Below are positions 33,085 to 47,637 of a stretch of DNA of 64,000 nt, piece after piece. A program made the position numbers and the translations under genes. The DNA comes from Rhizomicrobium sp. (GTDB lineage: Bacteria > Pseudomonadota > Alphaproteobacteria > Micropepsales > Micropepsaceae), in NCBI GenBank assembly GCA_035605955.1, contig DATNGI010000066.1, positions 14,495 through 78,494 of the forward strand. The letters run 5' to 3'. The notes under the pieces are model-generated. The model was not told the DNA's origin. It did no database searches and saw only the letters and a program-made list of their open reading frames with translations. Position 1 is the stretch's first letter. Each line of letters starts with the position of its first letter.

Positions 33085-34101
33085 ATGATGAAGCGGAGTA
33101 TTCTCGCATATGTGGTTCTTGCCTGCTGCCTGGCCTCGCGCGCCAAGGCGGAGGAATGCGCCGCGCCGCGGCTGGAAAACACGGTGCCGATGGAAGCGGC
33201 GGGCCAATCCGGCGAGGTGGTCGTGCCGATCACTTTGAACGGGGTGGAAAAGAAATTCCTGTTCGATACCGGCGGCGGCGCAATGAACTATATCAAGCCT
33301 GCCGTAGCCCTGAGCCTGGGTCTTTTCAAGACCGACAATTTCCCGGCGCTGGATCTGGCGGGGAACAAATCCTACAAAATCGCCGGTGCGCGCAGCGTGA
33401 AATTTGGCGCGATCGCGAGCCGGGACGTCGTCCTTTTCCAGATGGTGCCGGAACTGGCTTTCGACGGTATCCTGTCGGCCGGGACGATGACCGGCAACGA
33501 CCTCGACATCGAGTTCGGCGCCATGCGGCTCAACTTCTTTTCCGCCGATCATTGTGCGGGCGACGTGGTCTATTGGCCGCATCAGGCGCTGGCCGTGGTC
33601 CCAGTCACACTGGCGGGCGGCCATTTCGAAATCGGCGTGACGCTGGATGGCCATGCGCTGACGGCGGTGATCGATACCGGCTCACCCTGGACGATTTTGG
33701 ATGCCGGGTGGGCGAAGGAAAATCTGGGCTTTTCGCCGGACGCTCCGCCCTCCGGCATTCCGAAGGACAGGCCCGGCGAGCAGATTTATTTCCGCCGCTA
33801 TTCCGCGCTCGCTTTTCCCGGCATCACCGTTGCCAATCCGCTGGTGGTGGTGCGGTCAGTCCAGTTTGGCGACGGCGGCGGCCGGGCCGGCCCGGCGCCC
33901 GACATGATCATCGGAATGGAAGTGCTCCGGCATCTTCATCTCTATTACGCGGCGGGCGAACAGAAATTCTACATCACGCCCGCCACGGCCGGCGCCTCCG
34001 TATTGCCCAAACCCATCGCGGCGGCATCGCACGGTCATGCCTGGCCGCAGGATGAAGAGGCCTATTCAAAAGTGTGGGACCCGATCCACCGCATGCATTA
34101 G
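33085..34101 (+). CDS. Secreted two-lobed retropepsin-like aspartyl protease, both DTG motifs intact
   Basis: FLFDTGG and AVIDTGS; FDGIL; IIGM.VL; signal peptide. Confidence 0.88.
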   Translation: MMKRSILAYVVLACCLASRAKAEECAAPRLENTVPMEAAGQSGEVVVPITLNGVEKKFLFDTGGGAMNYIKPAVALSLGLFKTDNFPALDLAGNKSYKIAGARSVKFGAIASRDVVLFQMVPELAFDGILSAGTMTGNDLDIEFGAMRLNFFSADHCAGDVVYWPHQALAVVPVTLAGGHFEIGVTLDGHALTAVIDTGSPWTILDAGWAKENLGFSPDAPPSGIPKDRPGEQIYFRRYSALAFPGITVANPLVVVRSVQFGDGGGRAGPAPDMIIGMEVLRHLHLYYAAGEQKFYITPATAGASVLPKPIAAASHGHAWPQDEEAYSKVWDPIHRMH

Positions 34102-34124
34102 GACCGGAGCCTTCGGATAGAGTC

Positions 34125-35669
34125 TCAGTCGTCAAAATCAGGATGCTTGCCTGTGTCCTCCGACCGCTGGAAATCGGACAAGGGATGCTTGTTCACTTCG
34201 TCGATGATCTTGGCGAAGGCGCGGGTCGAGGTTTCAAGTCCGGTCCATGGCACCGCTTCCGGCGTCTCCCATTCGGTGTGGAAATAGGAATGATATTCCG
34301 ACGCGTCGATCGCGGGCGTGAAGCGGTAGAAATAGCTCGCGTCACTGGCCGGCGGCGTGGGGCTGGGATCGAATTCCAGCGGCTGGCCGAATTTCTTGAA
34401 CGCGTCCCACACGATCTTCTGCAGCACGGGCCGTTCCTTGCCGCCGCCATACCATTGCAGTGGCATGAAGGTGTTGGCCCAGGCCAGTTCGTCGCCGGGA
34501 TAATAGCGCGGCCGCGATTGGGTGAAGATGGTCGAGGGATGCTCGTCATTGAGCAAAAGTGCCGTCTTGGCGAACAAACTCGCCTTGTTCGCCGTCAGGT
34601 ATTTCACGCCCAGCGCGCCGTCCGAACCATTGTGATGGCCGTCCAGTCCGATAAAGACCATGGTGCGCTTGCGCTTGGCCTTCGGAATCTTGGCGAAATA
34701 TTCCGCCAGCCCCAGCATGGAGGCGACGCCGGCGGCATTGTCGCTGGCGCCTTCGAACCAGCCATCCTTGTGGGCGGTGATGTAGATGGTTTCGTCGGTC
34801 GCGCCTTGAAGTGTGCCCCACACCAAGGCGGTCTTGAGATTGGGCACCTTCTGCACATCCAGCGACACGCGGACTTTGGCCGACATGCCGCCGCCCGCCG
34901 TTTCGATCAAGGTCCGCGCCGCTGTGCCATCGTCATTGCCGAGCGTGAAGGCGGGCGCTTTGGTGCCGGACGGATAGGCCTGATAGCGCATATTGCCCGG
35001 CAGCATGGAGACTTCGAAGATCGCCGCCGCGCCCTTGTCGTCGGCGCGCTTGACCGCCCGCGCATTGGTCACGCCCAGCATGGAGGCGATGAAGACCGCC
35101 TTGCCCTTCACGTCACGGCCCATGAAATCGGCTTCGGTGCCGAGCCCCACATACACCGCGTCGAGATCGGTCGGGGGCAAGGGACCGGCTTCATAGTCCG
35201 GCTGGGCGGAGTTCAAATGTATCGTCTTGCCGTTCGCTGTCACCGCCACGTCCCAGGTCATTGGCGTCCATTGCGGCGGCAGATCAAGCGGCTGGATGCG
35301 CACATCGGAAAGACCCAGCGCACGGAATTTTCCCGCCAGCCACTCATTGGTCTCGCGCTCGCTTTCGGTACCGATCAACCGGCCCCAATATTTGGGATGG
35401 CCCGTGTCGCGATAGCGTTTGGAGATGGCCGCCAGCTCTTCCACATATTTGTGCATCTTCCTGCCGTCGATGCTGCGATAGGCTTCCTCGCCCTTGGGCA
35501 GGGGGAATTCGATCAGCGCATTCTCCACCCGCGACAGGGAAAGCGCCGGCGGGGTGAGCGACTGGGCGATGGTGGAACGGGCGCCTTGCGCCTGCCCCGA
35601 TTGCGCCCAGGCCATGACGGCCAGCGGCACCGCGATGAATGCACTCGCGCGCAGAAAAATCCGTCTCAC
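34125..35669 (-). CDS. Secreted M28 family Zn peptidase with PA domain
   Basis: AHKDG...GASDNAAG, G.H and PA insert (Y.GLG...DF...DVKGK); GTG start after GGAGG. Confidence 0.88.
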   Translation of the reverse strand: MRRIFLRASAFIAVPLAVMAWAQSGQAQGARSTIAQSLTPPALSLSRVENALIEFPLPKGEEAYRSIDGRKMHKYVEELAAISKRYRDTGHPKYWGRLIGTESERETNEWLAGKFRALGLSDVRIQPLDLPPQWTPMTWDVAVTANGKTIHLNSAQPDYEAGPLPPTDLDAVYVGLGTEADFMGRDVKGKAVFIASMLGVTNARAVKRADDKGAAAIFEVSMLPGNMRYQAYPSGTKAPAFTLGNDDGTAARTLIETAGGGMSAKVRVSLDVQKVPNLKTALVWGTLQGATDETIYITAHKDGWFEGASDNAAGVASMLGLAEYFAKIPKAKRKRTMVFIGLDGHHNGSDGALGVKYLTANKASLFAKTALLLNDEHPSTIFTQSRPRYYPGDELAWANTFMPLQWYGGGKERPVLQKIVWDAFKKFGQPLEFDPSPTPPASDASYFYRFTPAIDASEYHSYFHTEWETPEAVPWTGLETSTRAFAKIIDEVNKHPLSDFQRSEDTGKHPDFDD

Positions 35670-35879
35670 GCTGCCCTCCCTTGAAGCCCGCTTCCCGCGC
35701 GGTTTTGCGCATCTTGACGGGTGTGGAGGCGCACGCAAAGCGCCGCCGCCTGTGCGCATCTGCACATCGGTGGCGCATCTTTGCGCATTGAGGAAGCGTG
35801 GCCGCCATGCGTCCGCCTTCCGCGCCGGTGTGGTCGGCGCGAAAAATGCGCTTTGCCTTGGCTCCGGCCTTGTGGTAGA

Positions 35880-35900
35880 TGCTACTACAACGTAGGAGAT
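35880..35900. promoter_or_regulatory. Putative BlaI operator overlapping the RBS
   Basis: TGCTACTACAACGTAGGAGAT aligns with 43437-43457 (CTAyTACAnyGTAGnAGAT); both are followed by TCGAyGG. Confidence 0.7.
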
Positions 35901-35908
35901 TCGACGGC

Positions 35909-36295
35909 GTGGCGCTCCCCAGGCTCAGCAATCTGGAAATGCAGATTTTGGAGCTGCTGTGGGCGCACGGACCCTTGTCGGTGCGCGAGATCATGGAGCG
36001 GCTTCCGGCCAAGCGCCTCCCGGCCTACACCACGGTCCAGACCATGGCGGCGCGGCTGGAGGCGAAGAAGGCGCTAAGGCGTGCCCGCAAAGTGGCGACG
36101 GCGCATATCTACGAAGCCGCCATTCCGCGCGAGGCGGCGCGCAGGCGTCTGATAGACGATTTCCTGTCCGTGTTCGGTGGCGAGCATCGCCCGATCATGA
36201 TGCATCTGGTGAAGGCGGGAAGACTCACGCTCCAGGATATCGAAGAAGCGGAAGCTCATATCCGCGAACTGCAAAAGAAGAGCGGCAAGCCGTAG
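35909..36295 (+). CDS. BlaI/MecI/CopY family repressor (#1)
   Basis: LS.LE.QI...LW..G, PAYTTV.T...RLE.K, Y.A.I.R and L.D.F..VFGG motifs; 128 aa. Confidence 0.95.
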   Translation: MALPRLSNLEMQILELLWAHGPLSVREIMERLPAKRLPAYTTVQTMAARLEAKKALRRARKVATAHIYEAAIPREAARRRLIDDFLSVFGGEHRPIMMHLVKAGRLTLQDIEEAEAHIRELQKKSGKP

Positions 36296-36336
36296 CTGCC
36301 CAACCGAACGAGACGTTGAAAACAGGGGAACTTCAC

Positions 36337-37437
36337 ATGTCCGGGAAAATCGCGTGCGTCTTGACCCTATGGCTGGCGTCAAGCGCCGCCGCAATGGCGC
36401 AGACCGCGGGAGCGCCGCCACAGACGTCAGCGCCAGCGGGCTGTGAGCTTCCCGCCGTGGCGGATTCCGTCGAACTCAATCAGGTGCCCGGCAGCGATCT
36501 CGTAACGGTGCCGGTGGAGATCGAAGGCAAGCCGAAACATCTGGTGCTGGCCGTCGGCACCGGCGTCTCCGAAATCACGGAAGCGGCCGTGAAGGAATTG
36601 AAACTGGTCGACGGCATCAAGCGCACCGAGACGTTTCAGAGTGGCCCCGCCACTTGGTCAGCGGATACCAGTATGCGAAACGAGCTAACGGGCTCGACGA
36701 TCCAGTCCACTTTCGTGGATGTGAAAGGCGTGCATGCCGAGGAAGACAACCGACCGCATGTCGTCCTTTCCTCCTTCAAACTGGGAGGCGCGATCGGCCG
36801 CAATCTGAGTTTCGCCGTGGCCACCGACAAGGATATCTCGTCCTCGGCGCCCTATGACGGGCGGATGACCGGCTCCTTCTTCAAGCAATATGACGTGGAG
36901 CTGGATTTCGTCGCCATGAAGCTTCGCTATCTCACGCCCAACACATGCACCGATCCGCATCAAGTCGTGTTTTGGCCGCACAAGGACGTGGCGATCATTC
37001 CCATGAACATTGTGGACGGCAAGATCGAGGTGCAGGTCGATATCGGCGACCACAAGATCAATGCCATCCTCGACACGGCGTCGCCGCGCACCATCATGCG
37101 CCGCGACATCGCGGAAAACACGGTGGGCCTCAAGGCGGGTTCGCCGCAAATGGTGGCGGTGGAGGGGATGAAGGATGGCAGCGACATGCAGATCTATACC
37201 GCCACCTTTCCGCAGATCACTTTTGCCGGCGGCGTCACCGCCTTGAACGTCCCCGCCCTGATCCAGGTCAACGGCATGACGCACAATCTGCACAAGGAAG
37301 CGGTCCTGGGCAGCCGCGCCCAGTTCAAAGCCGATCCCCGCATTCCCGCGCTGACTTTGGGCATGGATGTGCTGCGCCAGCTACATCTCTATGTCGTCTA
37401 TGGGCAGCAGAATATCTACATGACGGCGGCTGAGTGA
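36337..37437 (+). CDS. Secreted retropepsin-like protein, N-lobe Asp absent
   Basis: Signal peptide; N-lobe LVLAVGT; C-lobe ILDTAS; YDG; LGMDVL. Confidence 0.85.
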   Translation: MSGKIACVLTLWLASSAAAMAQTAGAPPQTSAPAGCELPAVADSVELNQVPGSDLVTVPVEIEGKPKHLVLAVGTGVSEITEAAVKELKLVDGIKRTETFQSGPATWSADTSMRNELTGSTIQSTFVDVKGVHAEEDNRPHVVLSSFKLGGAIGRNLSFAVATDKDISSSAPYDGRMTGSFFKQYDVELDFVAMKLRYLTPNTCTDPHQVVFWPHKDVAIIPMNIVDGKIEVQVDIGDHKINAILDTASPRTIMRRDIAENTVGLKAGSPQMVAVEGMKDGSDMQIYTATFPQITFAGGVTALNVPALIQVNGMTHNLHKEAVLGSRAQFKADPRIPALTLGMDVLRQLHLYVVYGQQNIYMTAAE

Positions 37438-38105
37438 GCCGCGACCGCGAAGCCGGGCTGGTCAAGGCCATCGAAGATTTGATACGCGATGTCGGCACCC
37501 ATTATTCGTGGGCGATTCCCGATATCTGCCCTATCTCCTATGAGAAAACCGGAAACACCCTTACCGACACCCTGAATCTGCGCGCGGCCTGTCACCTGTT
37601 ATGGCTGACGGAGCCTGAGAGGCGTCAGGAGATATGCGGCTGGTATGTGAGACGGTGGGGCAAGATCGCAAAGACAAGCGATGACCGGATCGCGCATTAT
37701 GTCGAGACGTTGGCGCGCGGCGCGCTGCCCGACCGCCTGATGGGCGTGGCGTCCTGGTCCAAAGTCGCGTCGATATGCGATCCGAACAAATATCCCATCT
37801 ATGACGCCCGCGTGGCGTTCGCACTGAACGCGTTGCTCATTCGCGACAATATCGCGCTCGCGCCCTTTCGCATGCCTGGAAGCCAAAGCACCACCATCAA
37901 CGCGGCGCTGAAGCGTCTGAAGGCGCATGGGATCAAGGAATCGAACGTCAACACGCCGGTGGACGATTATCGCCGTTACATGGCGTTGATGCACCGTTTC
38001 GGCACGCGCATCAGCCTGGCGGAAATGGCCTTGTTCGGTTCCGCGCCGATGCTGGCGGCGGGCTTGCCCGCACCAAGCGCGGCGCCACGGCTGGCGCGCT
38101 CCTGA
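37434..38105 (+). CDS. Putative HhH/OGG-like DNA glycosylase-fold protein
   Basis: G.ASWSKVAS..DP..YPIYDARVA.AL resembles HhH-GPD Lys/Asp motifs; ..AEMALF end; GTGA coupling to the upstream gene. Confidence 0.5.
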   Translation: MSRDREAGLVKAIEDLIRDVGTHYSWAIPDICPISYEKTGNTLTDTLNLRAACHLLWLTEPERRQEICGWYVRRWGKIAKTSDDRIAHYVETLARGALPDRLMGVASWSKVASICDPNKYPIYDARVAFALNALLIRDNIALAPFRMPGSQSTTINAALKRLKAHGIKESNVNTPVDDYRRYMALMHRFGTRISLAEMALFGSAPMLAAGLPAPSAAPRLARS

Positions 38106-38211
38106 CAGCGAGCCGGATCGATCGAAGGCGCTTTTGCCCGCAAGCGCCTTCATGATACAACCGCAGACATTGGACGCGCATTCTCCTTTTTGACGGAAAC
38201 AGGAGGGCATC

Positions 38212-39264
38212 TTGTTCAAGCAGGCATTTGCCACATTCCTCCTTCTCGCATGTTTAGGATTGGCCGGGACGGCGGCCGCGCAGGCACAAAGCTGCGGCGC
38301 GCCATCGCTTGCGGACAGAGTGGAATTGAAGCCGGTCGCCGCAAGCCATCTGATGACGGTGCCGGTCATGATCGAGGGTGCGTCCAAGCAGTTCCTGCTG
38401 GCGGTCGGCACCAATCCCGACGAGATCTCCCAGGCCGCCGCGACCGAATTGCATCTGGCCCAGCCCGAACAGCACACCGCCTATAACAGCCTGTCCGAGT
38501 TGAACGAGACCCTGCAATACCGCGCGCCCGTCATCGATGTGAGGAGCGCCGGCGCGGCCGCGGCCAAGGTCTATCAGCCGCGCGTGCGCGCCACCGCCTT
38601 CACCATCGGCACGGCCACTTTGCCCGGCCTGCAATTCCTGGTCTCCAACGACCGCGACTTGGGCGTTTCCAAGCCTTATGACGGGCTTCTGACCGCTGCG
38701 GGCTTTCGCCAATACGACATGGACATGGATTTCGGGGGAAAGCAGCTGACCTTCCTTGCAGCCCGAACCGGCTGCGCCGACCCCAACCAAATTGTGCGCT
38801 GGCCGCACGGTGTCATCGCCGTCATCGCCATGCGCATGAACAATGGCAAGATGAGCATTCCGGTTACGGTCATGGGCCATGAGATCGAAGCCGTCATCGA
38901 CACCGGTTCGGAGCGCTCGGTGATGCGCCGCGCGATTGCCGAGCGCTTGCTCGGCCTCAAACCCGATAGCGACATGGCGTCGGCCGGCGATCTACGCGAC
39001 GGGACGGGGCAGCGCGTCTATCAGCACATTTTCCCGGAAATCCGCTTCGAAGGCGTGGTGGCGAGCAATGTTCCGGCGCTGATTCAAGAATACAGCCTGG
39101 TCCGGCCGGCCCGCCGCGCCGTGGTCACAGGCAGCCGGCTGCAGGCCGCCGACACGCCGGGCGAGGTCGTTCCCGATCTCACCTTGGGCATGGATGTGCT
39201 CAGCCAGCTTCATATCTTCGCCGCTTTCCAGGACAACAAGCTCTACGTCACCGCCAATTCCTGA
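38212..39264 (+). CDS. Secreted retropepsin-like protein, N-lobe Asp absent
   Basis: RBS AGGAGG; signal peptide; FLLAVGT; VIDTGS; YDGLL; LGMDVL. Confidence 0.85.
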   Translation: MFKQAFATFLLLACLGLAGTAAAQAQSCGAPSLADRVELKPVAASHLMTVPVMIEGASKQFLLAVGTNPDEISQAAATELHLAQPEQHTAYNSLSELNETLQYRAPVIDVRSAGAAAAKVYQPRVRATAFTIGTATLPGLQFLVSNDRDLGVSKPYDGLLTAAGFRQYDMDMDFGGKQLTFLAARTGCADPNQIVRWPHGVIAVIAMRMNNGKMSIPVTVMGHEIEAVIDTGSERSVMRRAIAERLLGLKPDSDMASAGDLRDGTGQRVYQHIFPEIRFEGVVASNVPALIQEYSLVRPARRAVVTGSRLQAADTPGEVVPDLTLGMDVLSQLHIFAAFQDNKLYVTANS

Positions 39265-39350: not shown

Positions 39351-39357
39351 CGGAACC

Positions 39358-39756
39358 ATGAAACAGCATCCGCCCAAGCCGACCCAGTCCGAACTGGAAA
39401 TCCTGCGCGTTCTTTGGGGCAGGGGACCATCGACCGTCCGCGAAGTGCTGGAATCGCTGAACGAGACCAAAAGCCTGGGCTATACCGGGGTCCTCAAGCT
39501 TCTGCAGATCATGACCGCCAAGGGCAGCGTGCGCCGCGATGAAAGCAATCGCGCCCATGTCTATGAAGCGCGCCGCCCCGAAGACCAGACCAAGCGGCAG
39601 CTTGCCAGCGACATGCTGCAGCGTGTGTTCGAAGGTTCGGCCAGCCAATTGATGATGCATGCGCTGGCCGGGCGCAGCACCTCACCCGAAGAGATCGAAG
39701 AACTCCGCCGCATCCTGGATGCGCATGAGGGAGACGATGATGGCAAGGCTGAATAG
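39358..39756 (+). CDS. BlaI/MecI/CopY family repressor (#2)
   Basis: PT.SELEIL.VLW..GPSTVREV, GYT.VLK.LQIM..KG.V.RDE..RAH.Y and F.GSAS.L motifs. Confidence 0.96.
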   Translation: MKQHPPKPTQSELEILRVLWGRGPSTVREVLESLNETKSLGYTGVLKLLQIMTAKGSVRRDESNRAHVYEARRPEDQTKRQLASDMLQRVFEGSASQLMMHALAGRSTSPEEIEELRRILDAHEGDDDGKAE

Positions 39757-42193
39757 CTGGCTTTCGCCCGATGTAATGCATGCCCTGGGTTGGGCCCTGA
39801 TCCATTCGCTGTGGCAATGCGTGGCGTTGGCCGCGCTGGCGGCGGCATTGATGGCTTTCAGCCGCCGGCCCTCCGTCCGCTACCTTGTCGCTACGGGCGC
39901 ACTGGCCGCGATGCTGGTGGCGCTCGTGGCGACCTTTTTCATTCTGGTGAAGCCTACCCAGCCGGCGCATGTGCCGTCGCCGGCCGGTCAGGGCTTGCCG
40001 TCCTTCGCCGTGCCGGCCGCCATGTCTCCCTCAGTTGTTGCGGGGAATGCCTCCACCGCCGCGCCTGTGGCCATGGCGGCCGGCGCGGTGATCTCGCCAC
40101 TGGATTCGTACCGAATACGTCCAGCGCGGCCCGCACCGGATTTCCTGCCGTCCAGTCTCCTGCCGTGGCTGGTGGCGGCATGGCTTTCCGGCGTGGCGCT
40201 GTTCAGCCTGCGCTTCGCCGGCGGCTTCCTGCTTCTGGAATATCGGCGCCGCACTCTTTGCGAGCCGCCCAATGCCCATATTCTCAGTCTGTGTCACGAT
40301 TTGCAGCGCAAGCTCGGCCTCGACCGCGCCGTGCTCTATTTGGAATGCGCTTGGATCCAGGCACCCGCCGTGATCGGCTGGCTCGGTCCCATCGTGCTTC
40401 TGCCGATCGCGGCTTTAAGCGGGTTGTCGGAAGCGCAATTGCGCGCGGTGATCGCGCATGAGTTGGCGCATATCCGCCGGCATGATTTCTTCATCAATCT
40501 TCTGCAGGTCCTGGTCGAAACGCTTCTCTTCTATCATCCCGCGATCTGGTGGCTGAACGCGCGCATCCGCGCCGAGCGCGAACTCTGCTGCGACGAGATC
40601 GCGGTGTCCTTGACCGGCGACCGGCTGGAATATGCCAGGGTTCTGACCTTGATGGCGGAATGGGAGCAGGCGCCCGCGCTCGCCATGGCCGCCAATCGCG
40701 GACCCTTGACCGCGCGCATCTTCCACATTCTGGGCCGCAAATCGTCGGGCTTGGGCCAGCGCATGCTGGGATTGACGGGCGCAATTCTGTTCCTGGCCGC
40801 CGCTTTGGGCGCGGCCAATGCGCTGTTCGGAATCGCTTATCCGATCGCCAAGGCCGAAGCCAAAGCGGTCGCCAAGATTGTTCCAACCATCAGCCGGGCC
40901 GCCATCGATCAGGTCGCGTCCCTGGCATCTCAAGCAGCGGCGCCTGTGGTGAAAGCGCCGGACCAGAACGGCGGCCGTACCCTCAGTCGCCCGGACCTAG
41001 TCCAGGCCGAAACGCCCGTGGCGTCGCTGCCCGATGTGCCGCAGCCGTCAGCAGATGTTTTCCCGCCACCCGCCAAAGCCTCGGCCGCGCCGGAAGAGAC
41101 GGCATCGAATGATCCCGCGCCTGCACCAACGCCTGCGCCGGCTCCGGCGAATGCGCCTTCTGCCGCCCAGGTGGCGCTGAACGATCCGCCGGCTGCGACC
41201 GGGCGCAGCTGCGCGCTTCCCGCCATCGCCGACACGGTCGGGCTCACGCCGGTGCGCGGCAGCAATCTGATGACGGTGCCGGTTCAGATCAACGGCCAGT
41301 CCAAGCAATTCCTGCTCGATCTTGGCACCAATCCCACCACCGTCTCGCGCGCGGCGGTGGCCGAGCTGGGCTTGCCGGAAAACACCCGCATGACCAGCGT
41401 CATTCAGTTCGGCGGCAATGGCAGCACATCCGACATGGGCGTGCAGCAGGGCCTGCAGATGCAAGCGCCCGTCTATGACGTGCGGGGCAATCAGAAGACC
41501 TATGGCTTGCGCTCGCGGGTTCGCGTCGGCCAATTCACCATCGGCACCGCCACGGCGCCCAATCTGATGTTCATGGTCGCCAATAGCGGCGAGATCGCCA
41601 AGGCGGCGCCTTATGACGGGATCCTGACCAACGACATCTTCCGCCAATATGACGCCGAGCTGGATTTCGCGGGCAAGCAGATCACTTTCCTCACCCCCGC
41701 CAAATGCACCGATCCGGATCAAGTCGTGTTCTGGGCGCATGACGCAGTGGGCGTGATTCCCATGACCCTGGTGGACGGCCGGATCCAAGTGCCGGTGACC
41801 ATCGAAGGCCATCCCGTCGATGCGGTCATCGACACCAGCTCGCCGCGCAGCGTCATGCGCCGCGACATCGCCGAACGCATGCTGGGCTATAAGGCCGGGA
41901 CGCCCGAGATGATGGCCGATGGCGATACGAAAGACGGCATGGGCCAGCCGGTCTTTGTGCATAATTTCTCGCGGATTTCCTTCGCGGGCGGCGTCACGGC
42001 GGTGAATGTTCCGGCCCTGATCCAGACCAACAGCATGCTGCACGACAATGACAGCGAGCCGGTCATAGGCAGCAGGGCGAGCTCGGTGGATCCGCGCATT
42101 CCCGATCTGACGCTGGGCATGGATGTGCTCAGCCAGCTCCATGTCTATGCCGTGTTCGGGCAGAAAAAGCTTTACGTCACGGCCAACAAGTAG
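39737..42193 (+). CDS. BlaR1/M56 metallopeptidase fused to C-terminal two-lobed retropepsin-like module
   Basis: L.WAL.HSLWQ N-terminus; HELAH..R.D and E.CCD; TM; Pro/Ala linker; LLDLGT and VIDTSS lobes. Confidence 0.92.
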   Translation: MMARLNSWLSPDVMHALGWALIHSLWQCVALAALAAALMAFSRRPSVRYLVATGALAAMLVALVATFFILVKPTQPAHVPSPAGQGLPSFAVPAAMSPSVVAGNASTAAPVAMAAGAVISPLDSYRIRPARPAPDFLPSSLLPWLVAAWLSGVALFSLRFAGGFLLLEYRRRTLCEPPNAHILSLCHDLQRKLGLDRAVLYLECAWIQAPAVIGWLGPIVLLPIAALSGLSEAQLRAVIAHELAHIRRHDFFINLLQVLVETLLFYHPAIWWLNARIRAERELCCDEIAVSLTGDRLEYARVLTLMAEWEQAPALAMAANRGPLTARIFHILGRKSSGLGQRMLGLTGAILFLAAALGAANALFGIAYPIAKAEAKAVAKIVPTISRAAIDQVASLASQAAAPVVKAPDQNGGRTLSRPDLVQAETPVASLPDVPQPSADVFPPPAKASAAPEETASNDPAPAPTPAPAPANAPSAAQVALNDPPAATGRSCALPAIADTVGLTPVRGSNLMTVPVQINGQSKQFLLDLGTNPTTVSRAAVAELGLPENTRMTSVIQFGGNGSTSDMGVQQGLQMQAPVYDVRGNQKTYGLRSRVRVGQFTIGTATAPNLMFMVANSGEIAKAAPYDGILTNDIFRQYDAELDFAGKQITFLTPAKCTDPDQVVFWAHDAVGVIPMTLVDGRIQVPVTIEGHPVDAVIDTSSPRSVMRRDIAERMLGYKAGTPEMMADGDTKDGMGQPVFVHNFSRISFAGGVTAVNVPALIQTNSMLHDNDSEPVIGSRASSVDPRIPDLTLGMDVLSQLHVYAVFGQKKLYVTANK

Positions 42194-42202: not shown

Positions 42203-43255
42203 ATGAACAAGCAATGGACGGGTGCCTGCGTTCTTCTCCTGGCATTGAACGGGGCCGCGGCAGCTCAGACCTGCGCCTTGCCGCAGATCGCCGACCAGGC
42301 CGCGTTGCAGCCGGTCGCGGCCAGCAATCTGGTGACGGTGCCGGTCGCCATCAATGGCAAGCCCAAACAGTTCCTCCTGGATCTCGGCGCCGGCCCGATC
42401 AGCATCTCTGAGGCGGCGGTGGCCGATTTGGGTTTGCCCCAGACCATGAAGATGTCCAGCACCATCCAATCCGCCGGCGTCGGTTTCACAGGCAATTCCC
42501 AACCCTCGGCGCTTGGGACGTTCCAGGCGCCCGTCTATGACGTGAAAGGCAACCAGGCCGCGAATGCCCAGCGCGCCCGCGTGCGTGTCGCCGCCTTTAC
42601 GCTCGGCGGCGCGACCGCCAACAATCTGCAATTCATGGTCGCCAGCGACGGAGAGATCGCCAGAGGCGCGCCCTATGATGGGATGCTGACCACCGACATC
42701 CTCAAGCAATATGACGTCGAAGTGGATTTCGCGGGCAAGCAGATCAACTTCCTCACCCCCGCCAAATGCAGCGATGTGGACCAGATCGTGTTCTGGTCCC
42801 ATGGCGCAGTCGGCGAAGTTCCCATGGAAGTGGTGAATGGCCGGATCGTGGTGCCGGTGACCATCGAAGGCCATGCCATCAACGCCGTCATCGACACCAC
42901 ATCGACGCGATCAGTCATGCGCCGCGACATCGCCGAACTGGCCCTGGGCTTGAAGCCCGGCACGGCGGGTACCATACCGGACGGCGAGACCAAGGACGGC
43001 ATGGGCCTGCCCGTCTATGTCCACACCTTTCCGCAGATCGTCTTTGCCGGTGGCGTCACGGCGGTGAATGTGCCCGCTTTGATCCAGACCAACGGCATGC
43101 TGCGCGACGCGGACGGGGCCCCGATGCGGGGTAGCAGGGCGGTTGTGGGCGATGCACGCATCGCCGATTTCACCTTGGGCATGGATGTGCTGCACCAGCT
43201 TCATCTCTATGCCGTGTTCGGGCACAAGAAGCTCTACGTCACCGCTGCCCGGTGA
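42203..43255 (+). CDS. Secreted retropepsin-like protein with variant motifs
   Basis: RBS AGGAG; signal peptide; LLDLGA and VIDTTS; YDGML; LGMDVL. Confidence 0.85.
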   Translation: MNKQWTGACVLLLALNGAAAAQTCALPQIADQAALQPVAASNLVTVPVAINGKPKQFLLDLGAGPISISEAAVADLGLPQTMKMSSTIQSAGVGFTGNSQPSALGTFQAPVYDVKGNQAANAQRARVRVAAFTLGGATANNLQFMVASDGEIARGAPYDGMLTTDILKQYDVEVDFAGKQINFLTPAKCSDVDQIVFWSHGAVGEVPMEVVNGRIVVPVTIEGHAINAVIDTTSTRSVMRRDIAELALGLKPGTAGTIPDGETKDGMGLPVYVHTFPQIVFAGGVTAVNVPALIQTNGMLRDADGAPMRGSRAVVGDARIADFTLGMDVLHQLHLYAVFGHKKLYVTAAR

Positions 43256-43257
43256 GG

Positions 43258-43339
43258 GTGAGCGGCGGTTCGCGTCAGCGAACGAGTTGGTTCAGTGAAC
43301 CAATTCGAGCCGCGAACGCCCCGAGCACGAGCGAGGGGC
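43258..43339 (+). repeat. Structured repeat family A, copy 2
   Basis: GTGAGCGG-GTTCGC.GTCA.GCGAAC-GAGTTGGTTC.AGT.GAACCAATTCG-GAACGCCCC-GA-GC-ACGA-GC-GA-GGGGC. Confidence 0.9.
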
Positions 43340-43428
43340 CGCGCGCCCTAAAAAGCCTTTTGATCCGACCCACTTAAGCGCGGGCTGATGCCGCCGGCCG
43401 GATGTGGCCGGCGGTCGCGCAATATGGC

Positions 43429-43458
43429 TTGCGCCGATCTATTACATTGTAGTAGATT
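43429..43458 (+). promoter_or_regulatory. Putative BlaI operator overlapping a promoter
   Basis: Near-perfect palindrome ATCTATTACATTGTAGTAGAT (43437-57) inside TTGCGC-N18-TAGATT. Confidence 0.75.
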
Positions 43459-43484
43459 CGATGGTAGCGTAATTGAGGATGACC

Positions 43485-43871
43485 ATGGCGCTGCCCAGGC
43501 TGAGCAATCTGGAAATGCAGATCATGGAGGCGCTGTGGGCGGGCGGCGAACTTTCCATCCGCGATATCCTGGAATCGTTTCCGGCAAAGAAGCGGCCCGC
43601 TTATTCGACGGTGCTGACCATGGTGCGCCGGCTGGAAGCCAAGAAGGCGCTCCGCCATGTCAGGAAGATCGGCACCGCTTTCATCTATCAGGCGGCCATT
43701 CCCCGCGATGCCGCCCGCCGCCGGCTGATCGATGATTTCCTGGCGGTGTTCGGCGGCGAGACCCAGCCGATCATGATGCACATGATCGAGGCGGGAAAAT
43801 TCACCTTGGAGGATGTGCGCGCGGCCGAAAAATATGTGCGCGAAATCGCCAAGAAGGGCGGCAAGCCATGA
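43485..43871 (+). CDS. BlaI/MecI/CopY family repressor (#3), paralog of #1
   Basis: 128 aa; 88/128 identical to 35909..36295 by manual alignment; ATGA coupling to the M56 gene. Confidence 0.95.
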   Translation: MALPRLSNLEMQIMEALWAGGELSIRDILESFPAKKRPAYSTVLTMVRRLEAKKALRHVRKIGTAFIYQAAIPRDAARRRLIDDFLAVFGGETQPIMMHMIEAGKFTLEDVRAAEKYVREIAKKGGKP

Positions 43872-46480
43872 TCGCGGCGCTGCTGAATCATCTGTGGCAA
43901 TCCACGCTCTTTGTGGGCGTGGCCGGCCTGATGGCGCTGGCGCTGACCCGCAACAGCGCCACGGTGCGCTTCTGGGTTTGGTTCGCGGCGTCCTTCAAAT
44001 TCCTGGTGCCGTTTGCCGCTTTGACCGCGCTCAGTGCTTACGCCTTGGCGCCCATGGTGCCGCCGGTGGCGATTCCCAGCGTCACGCTGGCCGAACCGCT
44101 GGCCAAGCCTTTCTCCGCGCCGGCAATGGCCCGGATCGCCACGCGATGGAGCGCGCCCTCAGCGCCGGTCGCGCATCCGCCATTGCCGGCGCTTGCTGTC
44201 GTGCTTGCAGTGCCCGCCCATGTTGCGCCGGCTGCGCCCGAACACGCCGGCCGGCGGGCCTTATCCGCTTTCCATCTTAATCTGGAATCCGCCTTGCTGG
44301 CACTTTGGGCCGCGGGCGTGGCGATGCTGGCGCTCCGCTGGCTGATGCGTTGGCGAAGGTTGCGCGCTTTGTTGCGCGATGCGGTGGAGGCCGGGATCGA
44401 TGCGCCCATCGCCGTGAAATTCTCCGCGTCACGATTGGAGCCAGGCCTGGTCGGCATTCTCGATCCCGTCATCCTCTTGCCGCGCGGCATCGACCGGCAG
44501 CTTTCGCAGGCCGAACTCAAGGCCGTCTTGACGCATGAGCTGGGTCATTGGCGGCGGCATGACAATCTTCTGGCCGCCATCCACATGCTGGTGGAGGCGC
44601 TGTTCTGGTTCTTTCCCCTGGTGTGGTGGGTTGGCGCGCGTCTCAATGCCGAACGCGAGCATGCCTGCGACGAAGGCGTGCTGGCGGCCGGCAACGATCC
44701 GGAGACTTATGCCGAAGCCATTCTGAAGATCTGCCGCGTCTATCTGCAGTCGCCGCTGGCCTGCGTCGCGGGCGTTTCCGGCGCCAATCTGGGACAGCGC
44801 ATCCGGGCGATCATGGAAAACGGGCTGGTGTTGCGCTTGAACGCGGTGCGCAAATGCCTGTTGAGCGCCACCGCCGCCACCGCGCTCGCCTTGCCGGTGG
44901 CGCTGGGGCTGTTGACCGCGCCGGTGGTGCAGATGCAAGCGAAGGCGGCGCAGATTCTGGCGTCGATCAAGACAGGCCCAACGAACGCCGCGGATGACCG
45001 GAGCGACGAGGCGCTTCAGACATCAGGCGCGCCGGACGGCGAGGCCGTGCCGAAACATCATCCGTTCCGCCTAACCATCAGAAATCTGGCGGTCCCGGCG
45101 CCCGACTGGTCGCATCTTTTGTCGCCTGTACCCGCCGATCTGTTTGCGTCGAACGATCCGCCATCGGCATCGGCCCAGCTGGCCCAATTTGCATCGGACA
45201 GCTCTTCCGCCGCCGCACCGGTGAATGCCGCGCAACCCGCTGCGGCGGCTACGGCCGATCAGGCGCTGGCGCCTGGCGCCTGCCAAACGCCCAAACTCAT
45301 GGCGTCGGCCTCGCTGGAAGCGGTGCCTGGCAGCGATCTTCTGACGGTGCCGGTTGCGATCAATGGCTCGCCCCAAAAATTTCTGCTCGATCTCGATCTC
45401 AGGGCGGCAATGGTCTCTCCGGAATTGGTGTCAAAGGTGAGTCTCCCCAATGCCCTGCCGAATGCCGTGAGCATGAACGGGGTCGCGGCCCAAAACGCTG
45501 CCATCGCGATCCGTTCCCTGGACATTGGCGGCGTCGCTACCGGACGCGCGTCGCTGGCGGTCACGGGCGATGGCCAAATCCCACAATCGGCAGCCTATGA
45601 CGGAATTTTGAGCGGAAGTTTCTTCCAGCAATATGATGCCGAGATAAATTTTGCCGAAAAGAAAATCGCCTGGTTCACGCCCACGCGCTGCGCCGACCCC
45701 AACCAGATCGCGTCCTGGGCCCATGGAGACTTGTCCATCATCCCGGTGACCTTAGCCGCCGACGGCCGCTTGAAATTGCAGGCGACGATACGCGGCCATG
45801 TCGTCAACGCCGAGATCGACACCAGCTCGCCCCGCACCATTTTGCGCCGCACCGTCGCGGAGCAGACCATCGGATTGAAGGAAAATTCTGCGGACATGGT
45901 GCCTGTGAGCGGCCTTGAGGATGGCCGGCATATGCAGGTCTATGCCTCCACCTTCACACAGATCGCGTTCGCCGAGGGTGGCATCATGGTGGGAAATGTG
46001 CCGGTGCTGATTCAGGATTTCGGCATGGCCCATTCCATCACCCGGACGACCGACGAGCGCATCCCCGACCTCACCATCGGCATGGATGTGCTGCGCCATC
46101 TCCATATGTATGTCGCGCTTGGCCAAGGCAGGATCTATGTGACGGCGGCTGAGCCACTGTCGGGTGCGGCTTCCGCCGCGCCCCGCCTGGGACAGGCGGC
46201 GCTGACGTCGGCGGACATGCTGAAATTGCAGCAAGCCACCGAAGCAAGAGAATTTTGCATGAAAAGAGACCAGGGTCCTGACAACGATCAATACGGGAAA
46301 TGCGTGAACACGTATCTGCAACTGCACTATGACTGGGAGGTGATCCGCCTTCCCGGTGGAAGGCTCGTCGCCAGTACCCGTAGGCCGCAATTCAGTAACA
46401 GTCCTGCCGGAAGCATCGGCGGGTCGGGCATCAACACCTCAAACAACACCGCTTTTTACAATCCCCAAGCTTTGCATTGA
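43868..46480 (+). CDS. BlaR1/M56 metallopeptidase fused to retropepsin-like module plus extra C-terminal domain
   Basis: LNHLWQSTLF; W..AS.KFL.PF; HELGH..R.D and E.ACD; LLDLDL and EIDTSS lobes; ~110-aa tail. Confidence 0.92.
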   Translation: MIAALLNHLWQSTLFVGVAGLMALALTRNSATVRFWVWFAASFKFLVPFAALTALSAYALAPMVPPVAIPSVTLAEPLAKPFSAPAMARIATRWSAPSAPVAHPPLPALAVVLAVPAHVAPAAPEHAGRRALSAFHLNLESALLALWAAGVAMLALRWLMRWRRLRALLRDAVEAGIDAPIAVKFSASRLEPGLVGILDPVILLPRGIDRQLSQAELKAVLTHELGHWRRHDNLLAAIHMLVEALFWFFPLVWWVGARLNAEREHACDEGVLAAGNDPETYAEAILKICRVYLQSPLACVAGVSGANLGQRIRAIMENGLVLRLNAVRKCLLSATAATALALPVALGLLTAPVVQMQAKAAQILASIKTGPTNAADDRSDEALQTSGAPDGEAVPKHHPFRLTIRNLAVPAPDWSHLLSPVPADLFASNDPPSASAQLAQFASDSSSAAAPVNAAQPAAAATADQALAPGACQTPKLMASASLEAVPGSDLLTVPVAINGSPQKFLLDLDLRAAMVSPELVSKVSLPNALPNAVSMNGVAAQNAAIAIRSLDIGGVATGRASLAVTGDGQIPQSAAYDGILSGSFFQQYDAEINFAEKKIAWFTPTRCADPNQIASWAHGDLSIIPVTLAADGRLKLQATIRGHVVNAEIDTSSPRTILRRTVAEQTIGLKENSADMVPVSGLEDGRHMQVYASTFTQIAFAEGGIMVGNVPVLIQDFGMAHSITRTTDERIPDLTIGMDVLRHLHMYVALGQGRIYVTAAEPLSGAASAAPRLGQAALTSADMLKLQQATEAREFCMKRDQGPDNDQYGKCVNTYLQLHYDWEVIRLPGGRLVASTRRPQFSNSPAGSIGGSGINTSNNTAFYNPQALH

Positions 46481-46506
46481 TCCCGCCGTCGAAACGGGGA
46501 AGCACG

Positions 46507-47637
46507 ATGTTCAAACAAGCATCTCTCGCGTTCGCCGCCTTGTTGGCTTTGAACGCCGCCGGAGCCGCGCAGACCGATGCGCCAGCGCCGCCCGTAACGT
46601 CCTCGTCTGCCGATCAAGCGCTCGCGGCGCGCACCTGTGAGTTGCCCAAGATCGCCGACACCGCGCCGCTACAACCGGTGACCAACAGCAATTTGATGAC
46701 CGTGCCGGTGGCGATAAATGGCACGGCCAAGCAATTCCTGCTAGACATCGGCCTCAAGCGGCCGACCCAGGTCTCGCCTGAGTTGATGGCGGAGTTGAGC
46801 TTGCCCGAGGACGTGAAGCGGACCGAACTTCTTCAGTTCGGACCAGGGTCCTTCAATGCGCCTTACCTGGGCCTTCAGGTCCCCATCTATGATGTGCGCA
46901 ATGGCGGCGGCGGGGACGGCGCGAACACCCGCGTCCGCGTCAGCTCCTTCGGCATCGGCAATGCCACGGATCATCATCTGGAGATGATTGTCACGAAGAA
47001 AGGTGAGATCGGGCGTTCCGCGCCGTATGACGGGTTTCTGTCCGGCGATTTCCTGCGCAAATATGATGTCGAGCTGGATTTCGCGGGAAAGCAGATGACC
47101 TGGCTCACGCCCACCAGCTGCACCGATCCCAACCAGGTGGTGTTTTGGGCGCACAGGGACGTGGCGATCCTGCCGGTCAGTCTGGCCAAGGATGGCAGGC
47201 TGCAGATGCAGGCCATGGTCCGGGGCCATGCCATCAATGCGGAGATTGACACAAGCTCCCCGCGCACGGTCATGCGCCGCGACATCGCCGAGCTGTATGT
47301 AGGGCTCCAATCCAAGGACATGATCCCCGAAGGCGATCTCCAGGACGGCATGCACCTGCCGATCTATGTTTCCGTCTTCCCGGAACTTGTTTTCGCGGGC
47401 GGCAGCGTTACGGCCGTCAATGTGCCGGTGCGGATTCAAACTTACAGCATGCGCACCGCCAACGACCGTGATCTGAATTCGCATATGCGTGGCGTCATCG
47501 GGAATAGCCTGGTGGACGCCGACCGCATTCCCGATCTTTCCATCGGCATGGACGTGCTCAAGCATCTGCATATGTATGTCGTGCCGGGCCAGGCCAAAGT
47601 CTATGTGACAGCGGCGGAGGCGCCACAGGGACCATGA
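46507..47637 (+). CDS. Secreted retropepsin-like protein with variant motifs
   Basis: Signal peptide; LLDIGL and EIDTSS; YDGFL; IGMDVL. Confidence 0.85.
   Translation: MFKQASLAFAALLALNAAGAAQTDAPAPPVTSSSADQALAARTCELPKIADTAPLQPVTNSNLMTVPVAINGTAKQFLLDIGLKRPTQVSPELMAELSLPEDVKRTELLQFGPGSFNAPYLGLQVPIYDVRNGGGGDGANTRVRVSSFGIGNATDHHLEMIVTKKGEIGRSAPYDGFLSGDFLRKYDVELDFAGKQMTWLTPTSCTDPNQVVFWAHRDVAILPVSLAKDGRLQMQAMVRGHAINAEIDTSSPRTVMRRDIAELYVGLQSKDMIPEGDLQDGMHLPIYVSVFPELVFAGGSVTAVNVPVRIQTYSMRTANDRDLNSHMRGVIGNSLVDADRIPDLSIGMDVLKHLHMYVVPGQAKVYVTAAEAPQGP

What the first reader, a model, noticed from the sequence alone, without database searches (positions are those of the whole stretch)
33085..47637. Systematic degeneration of the catalytic DTG motifs in six of seven retropepsin-like modules
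Seen, as N-lobe/C-lobe motifs: 33085 DTG/DTG; 36337 AVG/DTA; 38212 AVG/DTG; 39737 DLG/DTS; 42203 DLG/DTT; 43868 DLD/DTS; 46507 DIG/DTS. Known: two-lobed aspartyl proteases need one Asp from each lobe in D-[ST]-G. Inference: only the copy outside the BlaI operons is a canonical protease. The two Asp-to-Ala copies cannot form the intramolecular dyad, and the others are probably pseudoproteases or enzymes of altered specificity acting as receptors, decoys or inhibitors.
Basis: partly seen in the sequence, partly recalled or inferred. Interest (0 to 1): 0.75.

Follow-up and report, generated by a model that had tools for sequence, protein, structure and literature searches.

The report
Pepsin-like pseudoprotease sensors and paralogues
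Six of seven neighbouring two-lobed aspartic-protease-like genes carry altered catalytic motifs that are conserved under selection across a whole clade, and two of them form the outward-facing sensor domain of BlaR1-type signalling proteases, so they most likely bind a ligand rather than cleave it.

Summary
Seven + strand genes carry a module made of two retropepsin-like (PF13650) halves. At homologous columns the motifs are DTG/DTG, AVG/DTA, AVG/DTG, DLG/DTS, DLG/DTT, DLD/DTS and DIG/DTS.

AlphaFold models of a variant and of the canonical copy are both bilobal and pepsin-like.

This is not recent decay. In a tree of 122 modules from this genome and related Micropepsales/Rhizomicrobium-type genomes, the six variants fall in one strongly supported clade of 51:
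- All 51 lack the N-lobe Thr; the usual form is D-[ILV]-G.
- The N-lobe Asp was lost repeatedly.
- The C-lobe Asp-Thr is kept in about 98%.
- dN/dS is 0.08-0.41.
- New invariant residues appear (Arg-Arg, Glu, Asp-Gly).

All nine BlaR1/M56 fusions found lie in this clade, and seven of eight with sequence downstream are followed directly by a free paralogue.

Best reading (0.55): these are non-catalytic ligand-binding modules, acting as sensor plus co-induced soluble binder. The N-lobe motif is the same as in the plant pepsin-like inhibitor EDGP (D-L-G).

Main rival (0.25): single-Asp catalysis, as in the Plasmodium histo-aspartic protease. No activity or ligand was tested.

This is a new variant of known kinds.

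The parts
33085..34101 (+). m1: free exported two-lobed module with canonical DTG (33265-33273) and DTG (33673-33681). It belongs to the canonical part of the family.
   Evidence: Pfam PF13650 46.6 bits. Alignment, motif coordinates. AF2 pLDDT 82.4, pTM 0.80. Foldseek hits are 9iy9 and then active pepsins.
35879..36295 (+). BlaI-type repressor #1. No M56 gene follows it.
   Evidence: PF03965 82.2 bits. The next gene is m2, 41 bp downstream.
36337..37437 (+). m2: free exported module with AVG (36550-36558) and DTA (37072-37080).
   Evidence: PF13650 37.5 bits.. Lies in the variant clade next to L025 and L023.
38212..39264 (+). m3: free exported module with AVG (38401-38409) and DTG (38899-38907).
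   Evidence: PF13650 60.4 bits.. Sister to L010 (ALS/DTG).
39358..39756 (+). BlaI-type repressor #2.
   Evidence: PF03965 95.3 bits.
39737..42193 (+). BlaR1-type M56 protein (HELAH at residue 241) fused to module m4. The module spans about 41141-42193, with DLG at 41318-41326 and DTS at 41831-41839.
   Evidence: PF05569 104.8 bits plus PF13650 63.7 bits. Hydrophobic segments and HExxH. Fused-clade position.
42203..43255 (+). m5: free exported module with DLG (42380-42388) and DTT (42893-42901). It starts 9 bp after the BlaR-m4 stop and is 64% identical to m4.
   Evidence: PF13650 72.9 bits.. AF2 pLDDT 85.7, pTM 0.81. Foldseek.
43473..43871 (+). BlaI-type repressor #3. It overlaps the start of the next gene.
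   Evidence: PF03965 84 bits.
43868..46480 (+). BlaR1-type M56 protein (HELGH at residue 223) fused to module m6. The module spans about 45212-46180, with DLD at 45389-45397 and DTS at 45818-45826. It lacks the N-lobe insertion and carries a roughly 100-aa tail with no family match.
   Evidence: PF05569 105.1 bits plus PF13650 43 bits.. Tail has no Pfam hit.
46507..47637 (+). m7: free exported module with DIG (46744-46752) and DTS (47248-47256). It directly follows BlaR-m6 and is 50% identical to m6.
   Evidence: PF13650 38.2 bits.. Same subclade as m6.

Best explanation
**What they are.** The modules are single-chain, two-lobed, pepsin-like proteins built from two retropepsin-like halves. They are exported to the periplasm or beyond.

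m1 is an ordinary member and probably an active acid protease. m2-m7 belong to an old paralogous clade that gave up the canonical active site:
- The N-lobe Thr of the 'fireman's grip' (the Thr hydrogen-bond network that ties the two catalytic loops together) was replaced by Ile/Leu/Val once, at the base of the clade.
- The N-lobe Asp then became dispensable and was lost many times.
- The C-lobe Gly is mostly Ser/Thr/Ala.
- The C-lobe Asp-Thr and a new set of invariant residues are kept.

**Proposed function.** I infer that the cleft now binds a ligand without turning it over. The ligand is most likely an extended peptide or a protein.

**Proposed mechanism.**
1. Fused to the outside of a BlaR1-type M56 protease, the module is the sensor.
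2. Ligand binding would activate the cytoplasmic zinc protease.
3. That protease cleaves the BlaI repressor and de-represses the operon.
4. The operon's only other product is a free paralogue of the sensor.
5. This soluble copy would bind the same ligand, acting as decoy, sequestering protein or inhibitor, and would also damp the signal.

The logic parallels BlaR1 with its beta-lactamase or PBP2a, where sensor and effector recognise the same molecule.

**Shown:** motifs, fold class, clade structure, purifying selection, gene fusions and gene order.

**Inferred:** lack of catalysis, ligand binding, BlaI cleavage and co-induction.
For: - **Fold.** AF2 models of m5 (pLDDT 85.7, pTM 0.81) and m1 (82.4, 0.80) both match whole bilobal aspartic proteases. 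The top hit is 9iy9, a Bacteroides fragilis putative endopeptidase (E 1e-13). After it, m5 hits the inactive plant binders basic 7S globulin and conglutin gamma alongside plasmepsins. m1 hits active pepsins.
- **Clade.** Among 122 modules, a clade of 51 (support 100) holds all six window variants. Every member lacks the N-lobe Thr.
- **Parsimony counts**. The N-lobe Thr changes twice on the tree, against 9 changes for the N-lobe Asp, 3 for the C-lobe Asp and 13 for the C-lobe Gly.
- **Independent sample.** The 28 best 50%-identity cluster representatives all lack the canonical motif pair. In ranks 29-150, 79 of 122 are DTG/DTG.
- **Selection.** dN/dS is 0.08-0.41 in variant pairs, and 0.08-0.43 in the six comparison pairs outside the clade.
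- **New constraints in the variant clade** (m5 numbering). R240 and R241 are 100% conserved, E245 95%, D265 98%, G266 94% and P27 100%. Both catalytic loops have a tight consensus: D-[ILV]-G-T-x-P-T and D-T-[SGT]-S-x-R-T-V-M-R-R-D-I-A-E. A 25-30-aa insertion sits in the N-lobe.
- **Architecture.** PF05569 plus PF13650 occur in one protein, with the module after the last hydrophobic segment. All 9 fusions lie in the variant clade. Seven of the 8 fusions with sequence downstream are followed by a free variant module.
- **Sensor and neighbour are related.** The sensor and the free gene next to it fall in the same subclade: m4 with m5, and m6 with m7.
- **Precedent.** The pepsin-like non-enzymes EDGP, basic 7S globulin and TAXI-I have N-lobe loops VDLGGR, VDLNGN and LDVAGP (PMC11313796). 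This is the same Thr-to-Leu/Val change.
Against: - No activity or binding data exist.
- I could not obtain model coordinates, so Asp-Asp geometry and cleft shape are untested.
- The C-lobe Asp-Thr is kept in about 98% of the clade. The N-lobe Asp is kept in all 9 sensors and in 76% of the clade overall. That fits a retained chemical role as well as it fits binding. The plant non-enzymes lost the C-lobe Asp instead.
- 29 of the 51 variant-clade members have no BlaI/BlaR neighbour and no recurrent neighbour of any kind. The sensor/decoy pairing therefore cannot be the whole function.
- The tighter conservation in the variant clade partly reflects its shallower divergence (about 50% identity within it, against about 30% in the rest).
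- dS is near saturation for many pairs.
Confidence: 0.55

Rival explanations
1. The variants are still peptidases with an unusual active site. Catalysis would run mainly through the C-lobe Asp, as in the Plasmodium histo-aspartic protease. The N-lobe Asp would be auxiliary, and specificity or pH optimum would be altered. The BlaR-fused copy would then sense by processing or binding substrate, and the free copies would be inducible proteases.
For: - The C-lobe D-T is conserved at 97-98% in the variant clade.
- The N-lobe Asp is present in 76% of the clade and in 9 of 9 sensors.
- HAP keeps activity with His in place of the N-lobe Asp. It is cited as evidence that the N-lobe Asp can be dispensable while the C-lobe Asp is required (PMC11313796). 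By my recollection HAP also has Ala in place of both motif glycines.
- The neighbourhood is rich in real peptidases: M28 and S33-type alpha/beta hydrolases.
- Relatives place canonical DTG/DTG copies behind BlaI-BlaR. This shows that BlaIR-controlled active proteases exist in this lineage.
Against: - The Thr of the N-lobe motif, half of the fireman's grip, is absent in all 51 members.
- The N-lobe Asp was lost at least 9 times on the tree without loss of constraint.
- The C-lobe Gly is replaced by bulkier Ser or Thr in most members.
- The same D-L/V-x N-lobe loop characterises known non-enzymes.
- No characterised aspartic peptidase that I know of has D-[ILV]-G.
Confidence: 0.25
2. The free paralogues do not bind an external ligand. 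They bind the sensor module itself, or a canonical protease of the family. They would then act as anti-sensor or feedback partners, or as inhibitors or regulators of the active enzymes.
For: - Each sensor groups with its neighbouring free copy.
- Retropepsin-type folds are built for self-association. RloA retropepsins are homodimers (PMC12239564).
- In relatives, catalytically altered copies ([N/S]TG/DTG) sit between two canonical copies in tandem triplets.
Against: - Each module is already a complete pseudo-dimer.
- No interaction was tested.
- Many variant copies stand alone in their genomes.
- The similarity between a sensor and its neighbour is equally explained by tandem duplication.
Confidence: 0.1
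3. Recent decay: the variant copies are dying duplicates of an active protease.
For: There are many tandem copies in one genome. One canonical copy on contig C64 appears frameshifted.
Against: - All six are intact ORFs.
- The motifs are shared by orthologues in about 20 other genomes.
- dN/dS is 0.08-0.41.
- Clade-specific invariant residues exist.
Confidence: 0.02

Closest known systems
Plant pepsin-like non-enzymes: EDGP/XEGIP, TAXI-I xylanase inhibitor, basic 7S globulin, conglutin gamma
   Same: Both are secreted, bilobal, pepsin-like proteins with altered catalytic loops that bind other proteins or peptides. The N-lobe loop is D-L-G, D-V-A or D-L-N in the plant proteins, against D-L/I/V-G here. 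Basic 7S globulin and conglutin gamma are among the best Foldseek hits of m5.
   Different: - The plant proteins belong to the pepsin family proper (A1) and lost the C-lobe Asp (S-T-x).
- The proteins here are built from two PF13650 halves, keep the C-lobe Asp and are bacterial.
- Some copies here are fused to a signalling protease.
- TM-scores are only 0.43-0.45 and identity is about 12%. The resemblance is one of kind, not of membership.
BlaR1/MecR1-BlaI signalling (M56 sensor-transducer plus repressor)
   Same: A BlaI-family repressor gene lies directly upstream of an M56 protein with HExxH. An extracytoplasmic C-terminal domain follows the last membrane segment. An effector gene is co-located and is related in ligand recognition to the sensor.
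   Different: - The sensor is a pepsin-like module, not a penicillin-binding or transpeptidase domain.
- NCBIfam blaR1_generic scores 74-81 bits against a cut-off of 400.
- The ligand is unknown.
- According to PMC13492132, only about 6% of BlaIR systems have the beta-lactam domain, so non-canonical sensors are the rule. This particular sensor did not turn up in my literature searches.
Bacterial secreted retropepsins (RloA/RimB of Pseudomonas, APRc of Rickettsia) and PDB 9iy9 (Bacteroides fragilis putative endopeptidase)
   Same: All belong to clan AA with the retropepsin-type fold, are exported, and have a conserved Cys pair. 9iy9 is the best sequence hit (E 3e-9) and the best structural hit (E 1e-13).
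   Different: - RloA and APRc are single-domain homodimers with DTG.
- The proteins here are covalent two-lobe proteins, most without DTG.
- 9iy9 has no paper in the library searched. Its N-lobe reads DTG in the HMMER alignment.
Histo-aspartic protease (HAP) of Plasmodium; inactive aspartic-protease homologues such as cockroach Bla g 2
   Same: These are pepsin-fold proteins with non-canonical motifs. HAP lacks the N-lobe Asp and is still active. Bla g 2 is described as an inactive aspartic protease (PMC9541408).
   Different: They are eukaryotic A1-family members with no signalling fusion. The substitutions differ. By my recollection, not checked here, Bla g 2 has DST/DTS.

Membership tests
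Clan AA retropepsin-like domain (Pfam PF13650 Asp_protease_2) | Profile match above the gathering score | tested here: met
   All seven score 37.5-72.9 bits against a cut-off of 24.3. In m2, m3 and m7 only one lobe, or neither, passes as a separate stretch.
Catalytically competent two-Asp aspartic peptidase | D-[TS]-G in both lobes (catalytic dyad plus fireman's grip) | tested here: not met
   Met by m1 only. m2-m7 have AVG/DTA, AVG/DTG, DLG/DTS, DLG/DTT, DLD/DTS and DIG/DTS.
Catalytically competent two-Asp aspartic peptidase | Proteolytic activity that is sensitive to pepstatin | not testable with these tools
   Needs purified protein.
Pepsin family A1 (Pfam PF00026) | Sequence-profile membership | tested here: not met
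   No PF00026 hit at E <= 0.1. There is structural similarity only, with TM 0.43-0.57 to pepsins.
Bilobal pepsin-like fold | Two beta-barrel lobes in one chain that match whole pepsin-like structures | tested here: met
   AF2 pTM is 0.81 and 0.80. Foldseek probability is 1.00 over 340-420 aligned columns to 9iy9, plasmepsins, pepsins and basic 7S globulin.
TIGR02281 clan AA DTGA protease | NCBIfam score at or above 57.95 | tested here: not met
   Best score is 43.3 bits, for m5.
BlaR1/M56 sensor-transducer | Peptidase_M56 domain with the HExxH zinc motif | tested here: met
   PF05569 scores 104.8 and 105.1 bits against a cut-off of 31. HELAH and HELGH are present.
BlaR1/M56 sensor-transducer | Beta-lactam-binding (transpeptidase-type) sensor domain | tested here: not met
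   There is no such domain; the C-terminal domain is PF13650. blaR1_generic scores 74-81 bits against 400.
BlaR1/M56 sensor-transducer | Adjacent BlaI-family repressor | tested here: met
   PF03965 scores 82-95 bits for three genes. Two of them overlap or abut the M56 genes.
BlaR1/M56 sensor-transducer | Signal-dependent cleavage of BlaI | not testable with these tools
   Needs a reporter or biochemical assay.
Plant XEGIP/TAXI-type pepsin-like inhibitors | Loss of the C-lobe catalytic Asp, and inhibition of a glycoside hydrolase | tested here: not met
   The C-lobe Asp is retained in all six. Inhibition was not tested. Only the N-lobe D-[LV]-x loop is shared.

The most novel reading that the evidence does not exclude
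An inducible decoy or immunity system in bacteria. A BlaR1-type receptor would have a pepsin-like pseudoprotease as its sensor. That sensor would recognise a foreign protein or peptide, such as a competitor's lytic enzyme, a bacteriocin or a protease inhibitor. The receptor would then switch on a soluble paralogue of the sensor that neutralises the same molecule. This would be a bacterial counterpart of the plant TAXI/XEGIP inhibitors, with sensor and effector diversifying together by tandem duplication.
Probability: 0.15. Interest if true: 0.8.

Novelty: new variant of a known kind. Interest (0 to 1): 0.58.

Why it matters
- **Ligands of BlaIR systems.** Most BlaIR-family systems have unknown ligands. 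Here the sensor is a recognisable fold with a peptide-binding cleft and an obvious control, the canonical paralogue m1, so the signal should be easier to find.
- **Pseudoenzyme evolution.** The family shows one founding Thr substitution followed by repeated loss of one catalytic Asp under continued purifying selection. The founding substitution is the one seen independently in plant pepsin-like inhibitors.
- **Origin of pepsins.** The family is also a covalent two-retropepsin protein with a pepsin-like fold. That bears on the old idea that pepsins arose by duplication of a retropepsin-like gene.

Tried and rejected
- **Recent decay or pseudogenes:** rejected.
- **Strict link between degenerate motifs and BlaI operons:** rejected. 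Canonical copies follow BlaI plus an unfused BlaR in eight relatives. In all, 29 of 51 variant-clade members have no BlaIR neighbour.
- **Recurrent neighbour for stand-alone variant genes:** none found. Only local synteny among close genomes appeared.
- **Promoter and terminator scan of 32.8-48.3 kb:** counts were at shuffle level and uninformative.
- **Literature on 9iy9, PF13650 in bacteria, or M56 fused to an aspartyl protease:** nothing relevant.
- **ORFs 37434-38105 and 47634-47990, and the m6 tail:** no significant family. They are not conserved next to modules in other loci.
- **Asp-Asp distances:** could not be measured, because structure prediction returns no coordinates.
- **Sensors keeping the N-lobe Asp more often than free operon copies (9/9 against 7/13):** Fisher p = 0.046 without phylogenetic correction. 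I treat this as a hint only.


Full report
**1. Checking the observation**

The region holds seven + strand genes that carry a module of about 330-350 residues. All seven match Pfam PF13650 (Asp_protease_2) above its cut-off, several in both halves. None reaches the NCBIfam TIGR02281 cut-off.

A MAFFT alignment places the two 'hydrophobic-hydrophobic-D-T-G' loops in register.

| Module | N-lobe / C-lobe |
|---|---|
| m1 | DTG / DTG |
| m2 | AVG / DTA |
| m3 | AVG / DTG |
| m4 | DLG / DTS |
| m5 | DLG / DTT |
| m6 | DLD / DTS |
| m7 | DIG / DTS |

Nucleotide coordinates are. m2-m7 are 34-64% identical to each other and about 30% identical to m1.

m4 and m6 are not separate genes. They are the C-terminal parts of two M56/BlaR1-type proteins (PF05569, 105 bits; HELAH and HELGH). 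In each, the module lies after the last hydrophobic segment and a long Pro/Ala-rich linker.

Three BlaI-family repressor genes (PF03965) precede m2, BlaR-m4 and BlaR-m6. The free copies m1, m2, m3, m5 and m7 start with Sec-type signal peptides. All modules share an invariant Cys pair. This fits an exported, disulfide-bonded protein.

**2. Fold**

The AlphaFold2 model of m5, built on a 91-sequence alignment, has pLDDT 85.7 and pTM 0.81. The model of m1 has pLDDT 82.4 and pTM 0.80.

Both match entire bilobal aspartic proteases in the PDB. The best hit for each is 9iy9, a 'putative endopeptidase from Bacteroides fragilis' (E about 1e-13). It is also the best sequence hit (E 3e-9).
- After 9iy9, m5 hits the inactive plant proteins basic 7S globulin and conglutin gamma together with plasmepsins.
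- After 9iy9, m1 hits active fungal and animal pepsins.

The E-values are close, so I do not read much into that order. TM-scores are about 0.45-0.57.

The modules are therefore covalent two-retropepsin proteins with a pepsin-like architecture. In both models the motif positions sit at the start of the loop after a beta-strand, in blocks of pLDDT 91-98. I could not obtain coordinates, so Asp-Asp distances were not measured.

**3. Is it decay?**

No. The evidence comes from several directions.

*More copies in the same genome.* This 3.1-Mb genome has further copies elsewhere:
- C35 carries a fourth operon: BlaI, a BlaR fusion (DFD/DTA), a free AVG/DTS copy and a free DIG/DTS copy.
- C64 has two canonical DTG/DTG copies.
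- C108 has a distant DTA/DMG protein.

*Relatives.* A scan of species-representative genomes found 78 loci. Nearly all are in Micropepsales/Rhizomicrobium-type alphaproteobacterial metagenome-assembled genomes. From these and the own genome I extracted 122 full modules. Of these, 56 are DTG/DTG.

*Tree.* In the tree all six window variants fall in one clade of 51 with support 100. Every member lacks the N-lobe Thr.
- Most are D-[ILV]-G, with C-lobe D-T-[S/T/A/G].
- Its sister group keeps the Thr but often has Asn or Ser in place of the N-lobe Asp.

*Parsimony counts*:

| Character | Changes on the tree |
|---|---|
| N-lobe Thr | 2 |
| N-lobe Asp | 9 |
| C-lobe Asp | 3 |
| C-lobe Gly | 13 |

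*Independent sample.* A profile search of 1.84 billion cluster representatives gave 251 hits at E <= 1e-30. The 28 best all lack the canonical motif pair. Among ranks 29-150, 79 of 122 are DTG/DTG.

*Selection.* Nei-Gojobori dN/dS is 0.08-0.41 for 13 pairs within the variant clade. It is 0.08-0.43 for six pairs outside it. Many dS values are near 1, so the ratios are rough, but they show purifying selection.

*New constraints.* The variant clade has its own invariant residues (m5 numbering):
- R240 and R241 (100%), E245 (95%), D265-G266 (98% and 94%) and P27.
- A tight consensus around both loops.
- A 25-30-residue insertion in the N-lobe, with low pLDDT at residues 80-120.

'Systematic degeneration' is better described as one ancient remodelling followed by repeated loss of one Asp.

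**4. Link to BlaI/BlaR**

*What holds.*
- All nine M56 fusions found (three in this genome, six in relatives) lie in the variant clade.
- Seven of the eight fusions with sequence downstream are followed directly by a free variant module.
- Sensor and neighbouring free copy share a subclade: m4 with m5, and m6 with m7.

*What does not hold.* The link is not exclusive.
- 29 of 51 variant-clade members have no BlaI/BlaR nearby, and most of these have about 6 kb of upstream sequence available. They share no recurrent neighbour.
- Eight relatives have canonical DTG/DTG copies immediately after BlaI plus an unfused BlaR.
- L035 and L041 have a BlaR with a different repeat sensor, followed by a variant module.
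- In this genome two more BlaIR pairs (C40, C53) precede S33-type alpha/beta hydrolases.

BlaIR systems in this lineage therefore commonly control exported hydrolases. The fusion of a variant module as sensor is a derived state.

*Distribution.* Among 36 other genomes of the same genus-level group, 31 have the two-lobed family. Only two have the variant clade, and none of 24 genomes from other families has a hit. This genome, with nine variant copies, is strongly expanded.

**5. Interpretation**

*Known.*
- Aspartic peptidases use one Asp from each lobe.
- The motif Thr residues form the fireman's grip (PMC11313796).
- The pepsin-like non-enzymes EDGP, basic 7S globulin and TAXI-I have N-lobe loops VDLGGR, VDLNGN and LDVAGP. 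This is the same Thr-to-Leu/Val change as here. They lost the C-lobe Asp.
- HAP lacks the N-lobe Asp yet is active. That paper argues the C-lobe Asp is the essential one.

*Best reading.* The repeated, tolerated loss of the N-lobe Asp argues that the clade's function does not need the dyad. So do the universal loss of its Thr and the bulkier residue at the C-lobe Gly. The new invariant residues and the use of the module as a receptor ectodomain argue for binding.

I therefore favour non-catalytic ligand-binding modules (0.55). The fused copy would be the sensor. The co-transcribed free copy would be a soluble binder of the same ligand. This is analogous to BlaR1 with its beta-lactamase or PBP2a. 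The ligand is unknown. A peptide or protein is the natural guess for this fold. The surrounding peptidase genes make peptide sensing plausible: M28, two S33-type hydrolases and canonical m1.

*Main rival.* The near-invariant C-lobe Asp-Thr keeps a HAP-like catalytic rival alive (0.25). So does the N-lobe Asp in all nine sensors, against 7 of 13 free operon copies (Fisher p = 0.046, uncorrected for phylogeny).

**6. Novelty**

- Pseudoproteases of the pepsin fold are known in plants and animals.
- Most BlaIR systems are known to lack a beta-lactam domain and to have unknown ligands (PMC13492132).
- Secreted bacterial retropepsins are known as homodimers (PMC12239564).
- I found no description of a bacterial two-lobed PF13650 family, of its variant clade, or of its fusion to M56. 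The only close structure, 9iy9, has no paper in the library.

I class this as a new variant of known kinds. My results agree with its architecture and add the phylogenetic and structural context.

**7. Limits**

- The tree is FastTree with local supports.
- Neighbour detection used small home-made HMMs for M56 and BlaI, so divergent regulators may have been missed.

Noticed in passing
own genome C40:50234-53164 and C53:1-2105 (outside the window); window 48900-49895: There are two further BlaI plus unfused M56 BlaR pairs. Their C-terminal region is a helical 'AHI-x-EKV-x-AAL' repeat. Each pair is followed by an S33-type alpha/beta hydrolase that is 36-52% identical to the hydrolase at window 48900-49895.
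   Followed up: partly
L031, L032, L034, L040 (about 3800-8100 in each locus): Conserved tandem triplets of two-lobed genes occur in these loci. The middle copy has NTG, STG or STS in the N-lobe, between two canonical DTG/DTG copies. This is a separate case of catalytic-site loss, and it is the sister group of the variant clade.
   Followed up: partly
L052:8648-9667, L063:5998-7002, L073:4920-5930, L075:5713-6744: A further independent clade has lost both catalytic Asp residues (NTA/NTG, NTA/NTS, ATA/NTA, STA/NTG). Its members lie in tandem with canonical copies.
   Followed up: no
L035:3852-5813, L041:3815-5875; window 31920-33068 (residues 283-380): ORFs of about 650-690 aa lie directly upstream of free variant modules, in loci where my M56/BlaI HMMs found a match nearby. 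They carry three repeats of a roughly 95-aa domain. The same domain forms the C-terminus of the window's alpha/beta hydrolase. I did not confirm that these ORFs are the M56 proteins; if they are, the repeat is a candidate alternative sensor domain.
   Followed up: no
window 29800-35800 and 48000-49900: The flanks are rich in peptidases. They hold PadR (30810-31166), a membrane ORF (31147-31902) and an S33-like hydrolase (31920-33068), followed by canonical m1. An M28 peptidase (34125-35765, - strand) lies divergent from BlaI #1.
   Followed up: partly
window 37434-38105: A 223-aa ORF without a signal peptide overlaps the m2 stop (GTGA), between m2 and m3. Its only hit is a sub-threshold OGG-like match (E 0.011, 15.9 bits against a cut-off of 27). 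It was not found next to modules in other loci.
   Followed up: partly
window 47634-47990: A 118-aa ORF with a lipobox (LPGC) overlaps the m7 stop. It has a weak, sub-threshold lactococcin-972 match (E 0.0026, 18 bits against a cut-off of 32.1). It is not conserved in the fetched loci.
   Followed up: partly
own genome C64:3006-4144: A canonical DTG/DTG copy is split over two frames (3006-3359 and 3323-4144). This is either a frameshift or an assembly error. It lies in tandem with an intact canonical copy at 4148-5221.
   Followed up: no
window 46148-46480 (C-terminal 110 aa of BlaR-m6): This extra Cys-containing tail after the m6 module has no Pfam match. It resembles a segment of the L017 BlaR (50% identity over 50 aa) and a small ORF on C138 of the own genome.
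   Followed up: no
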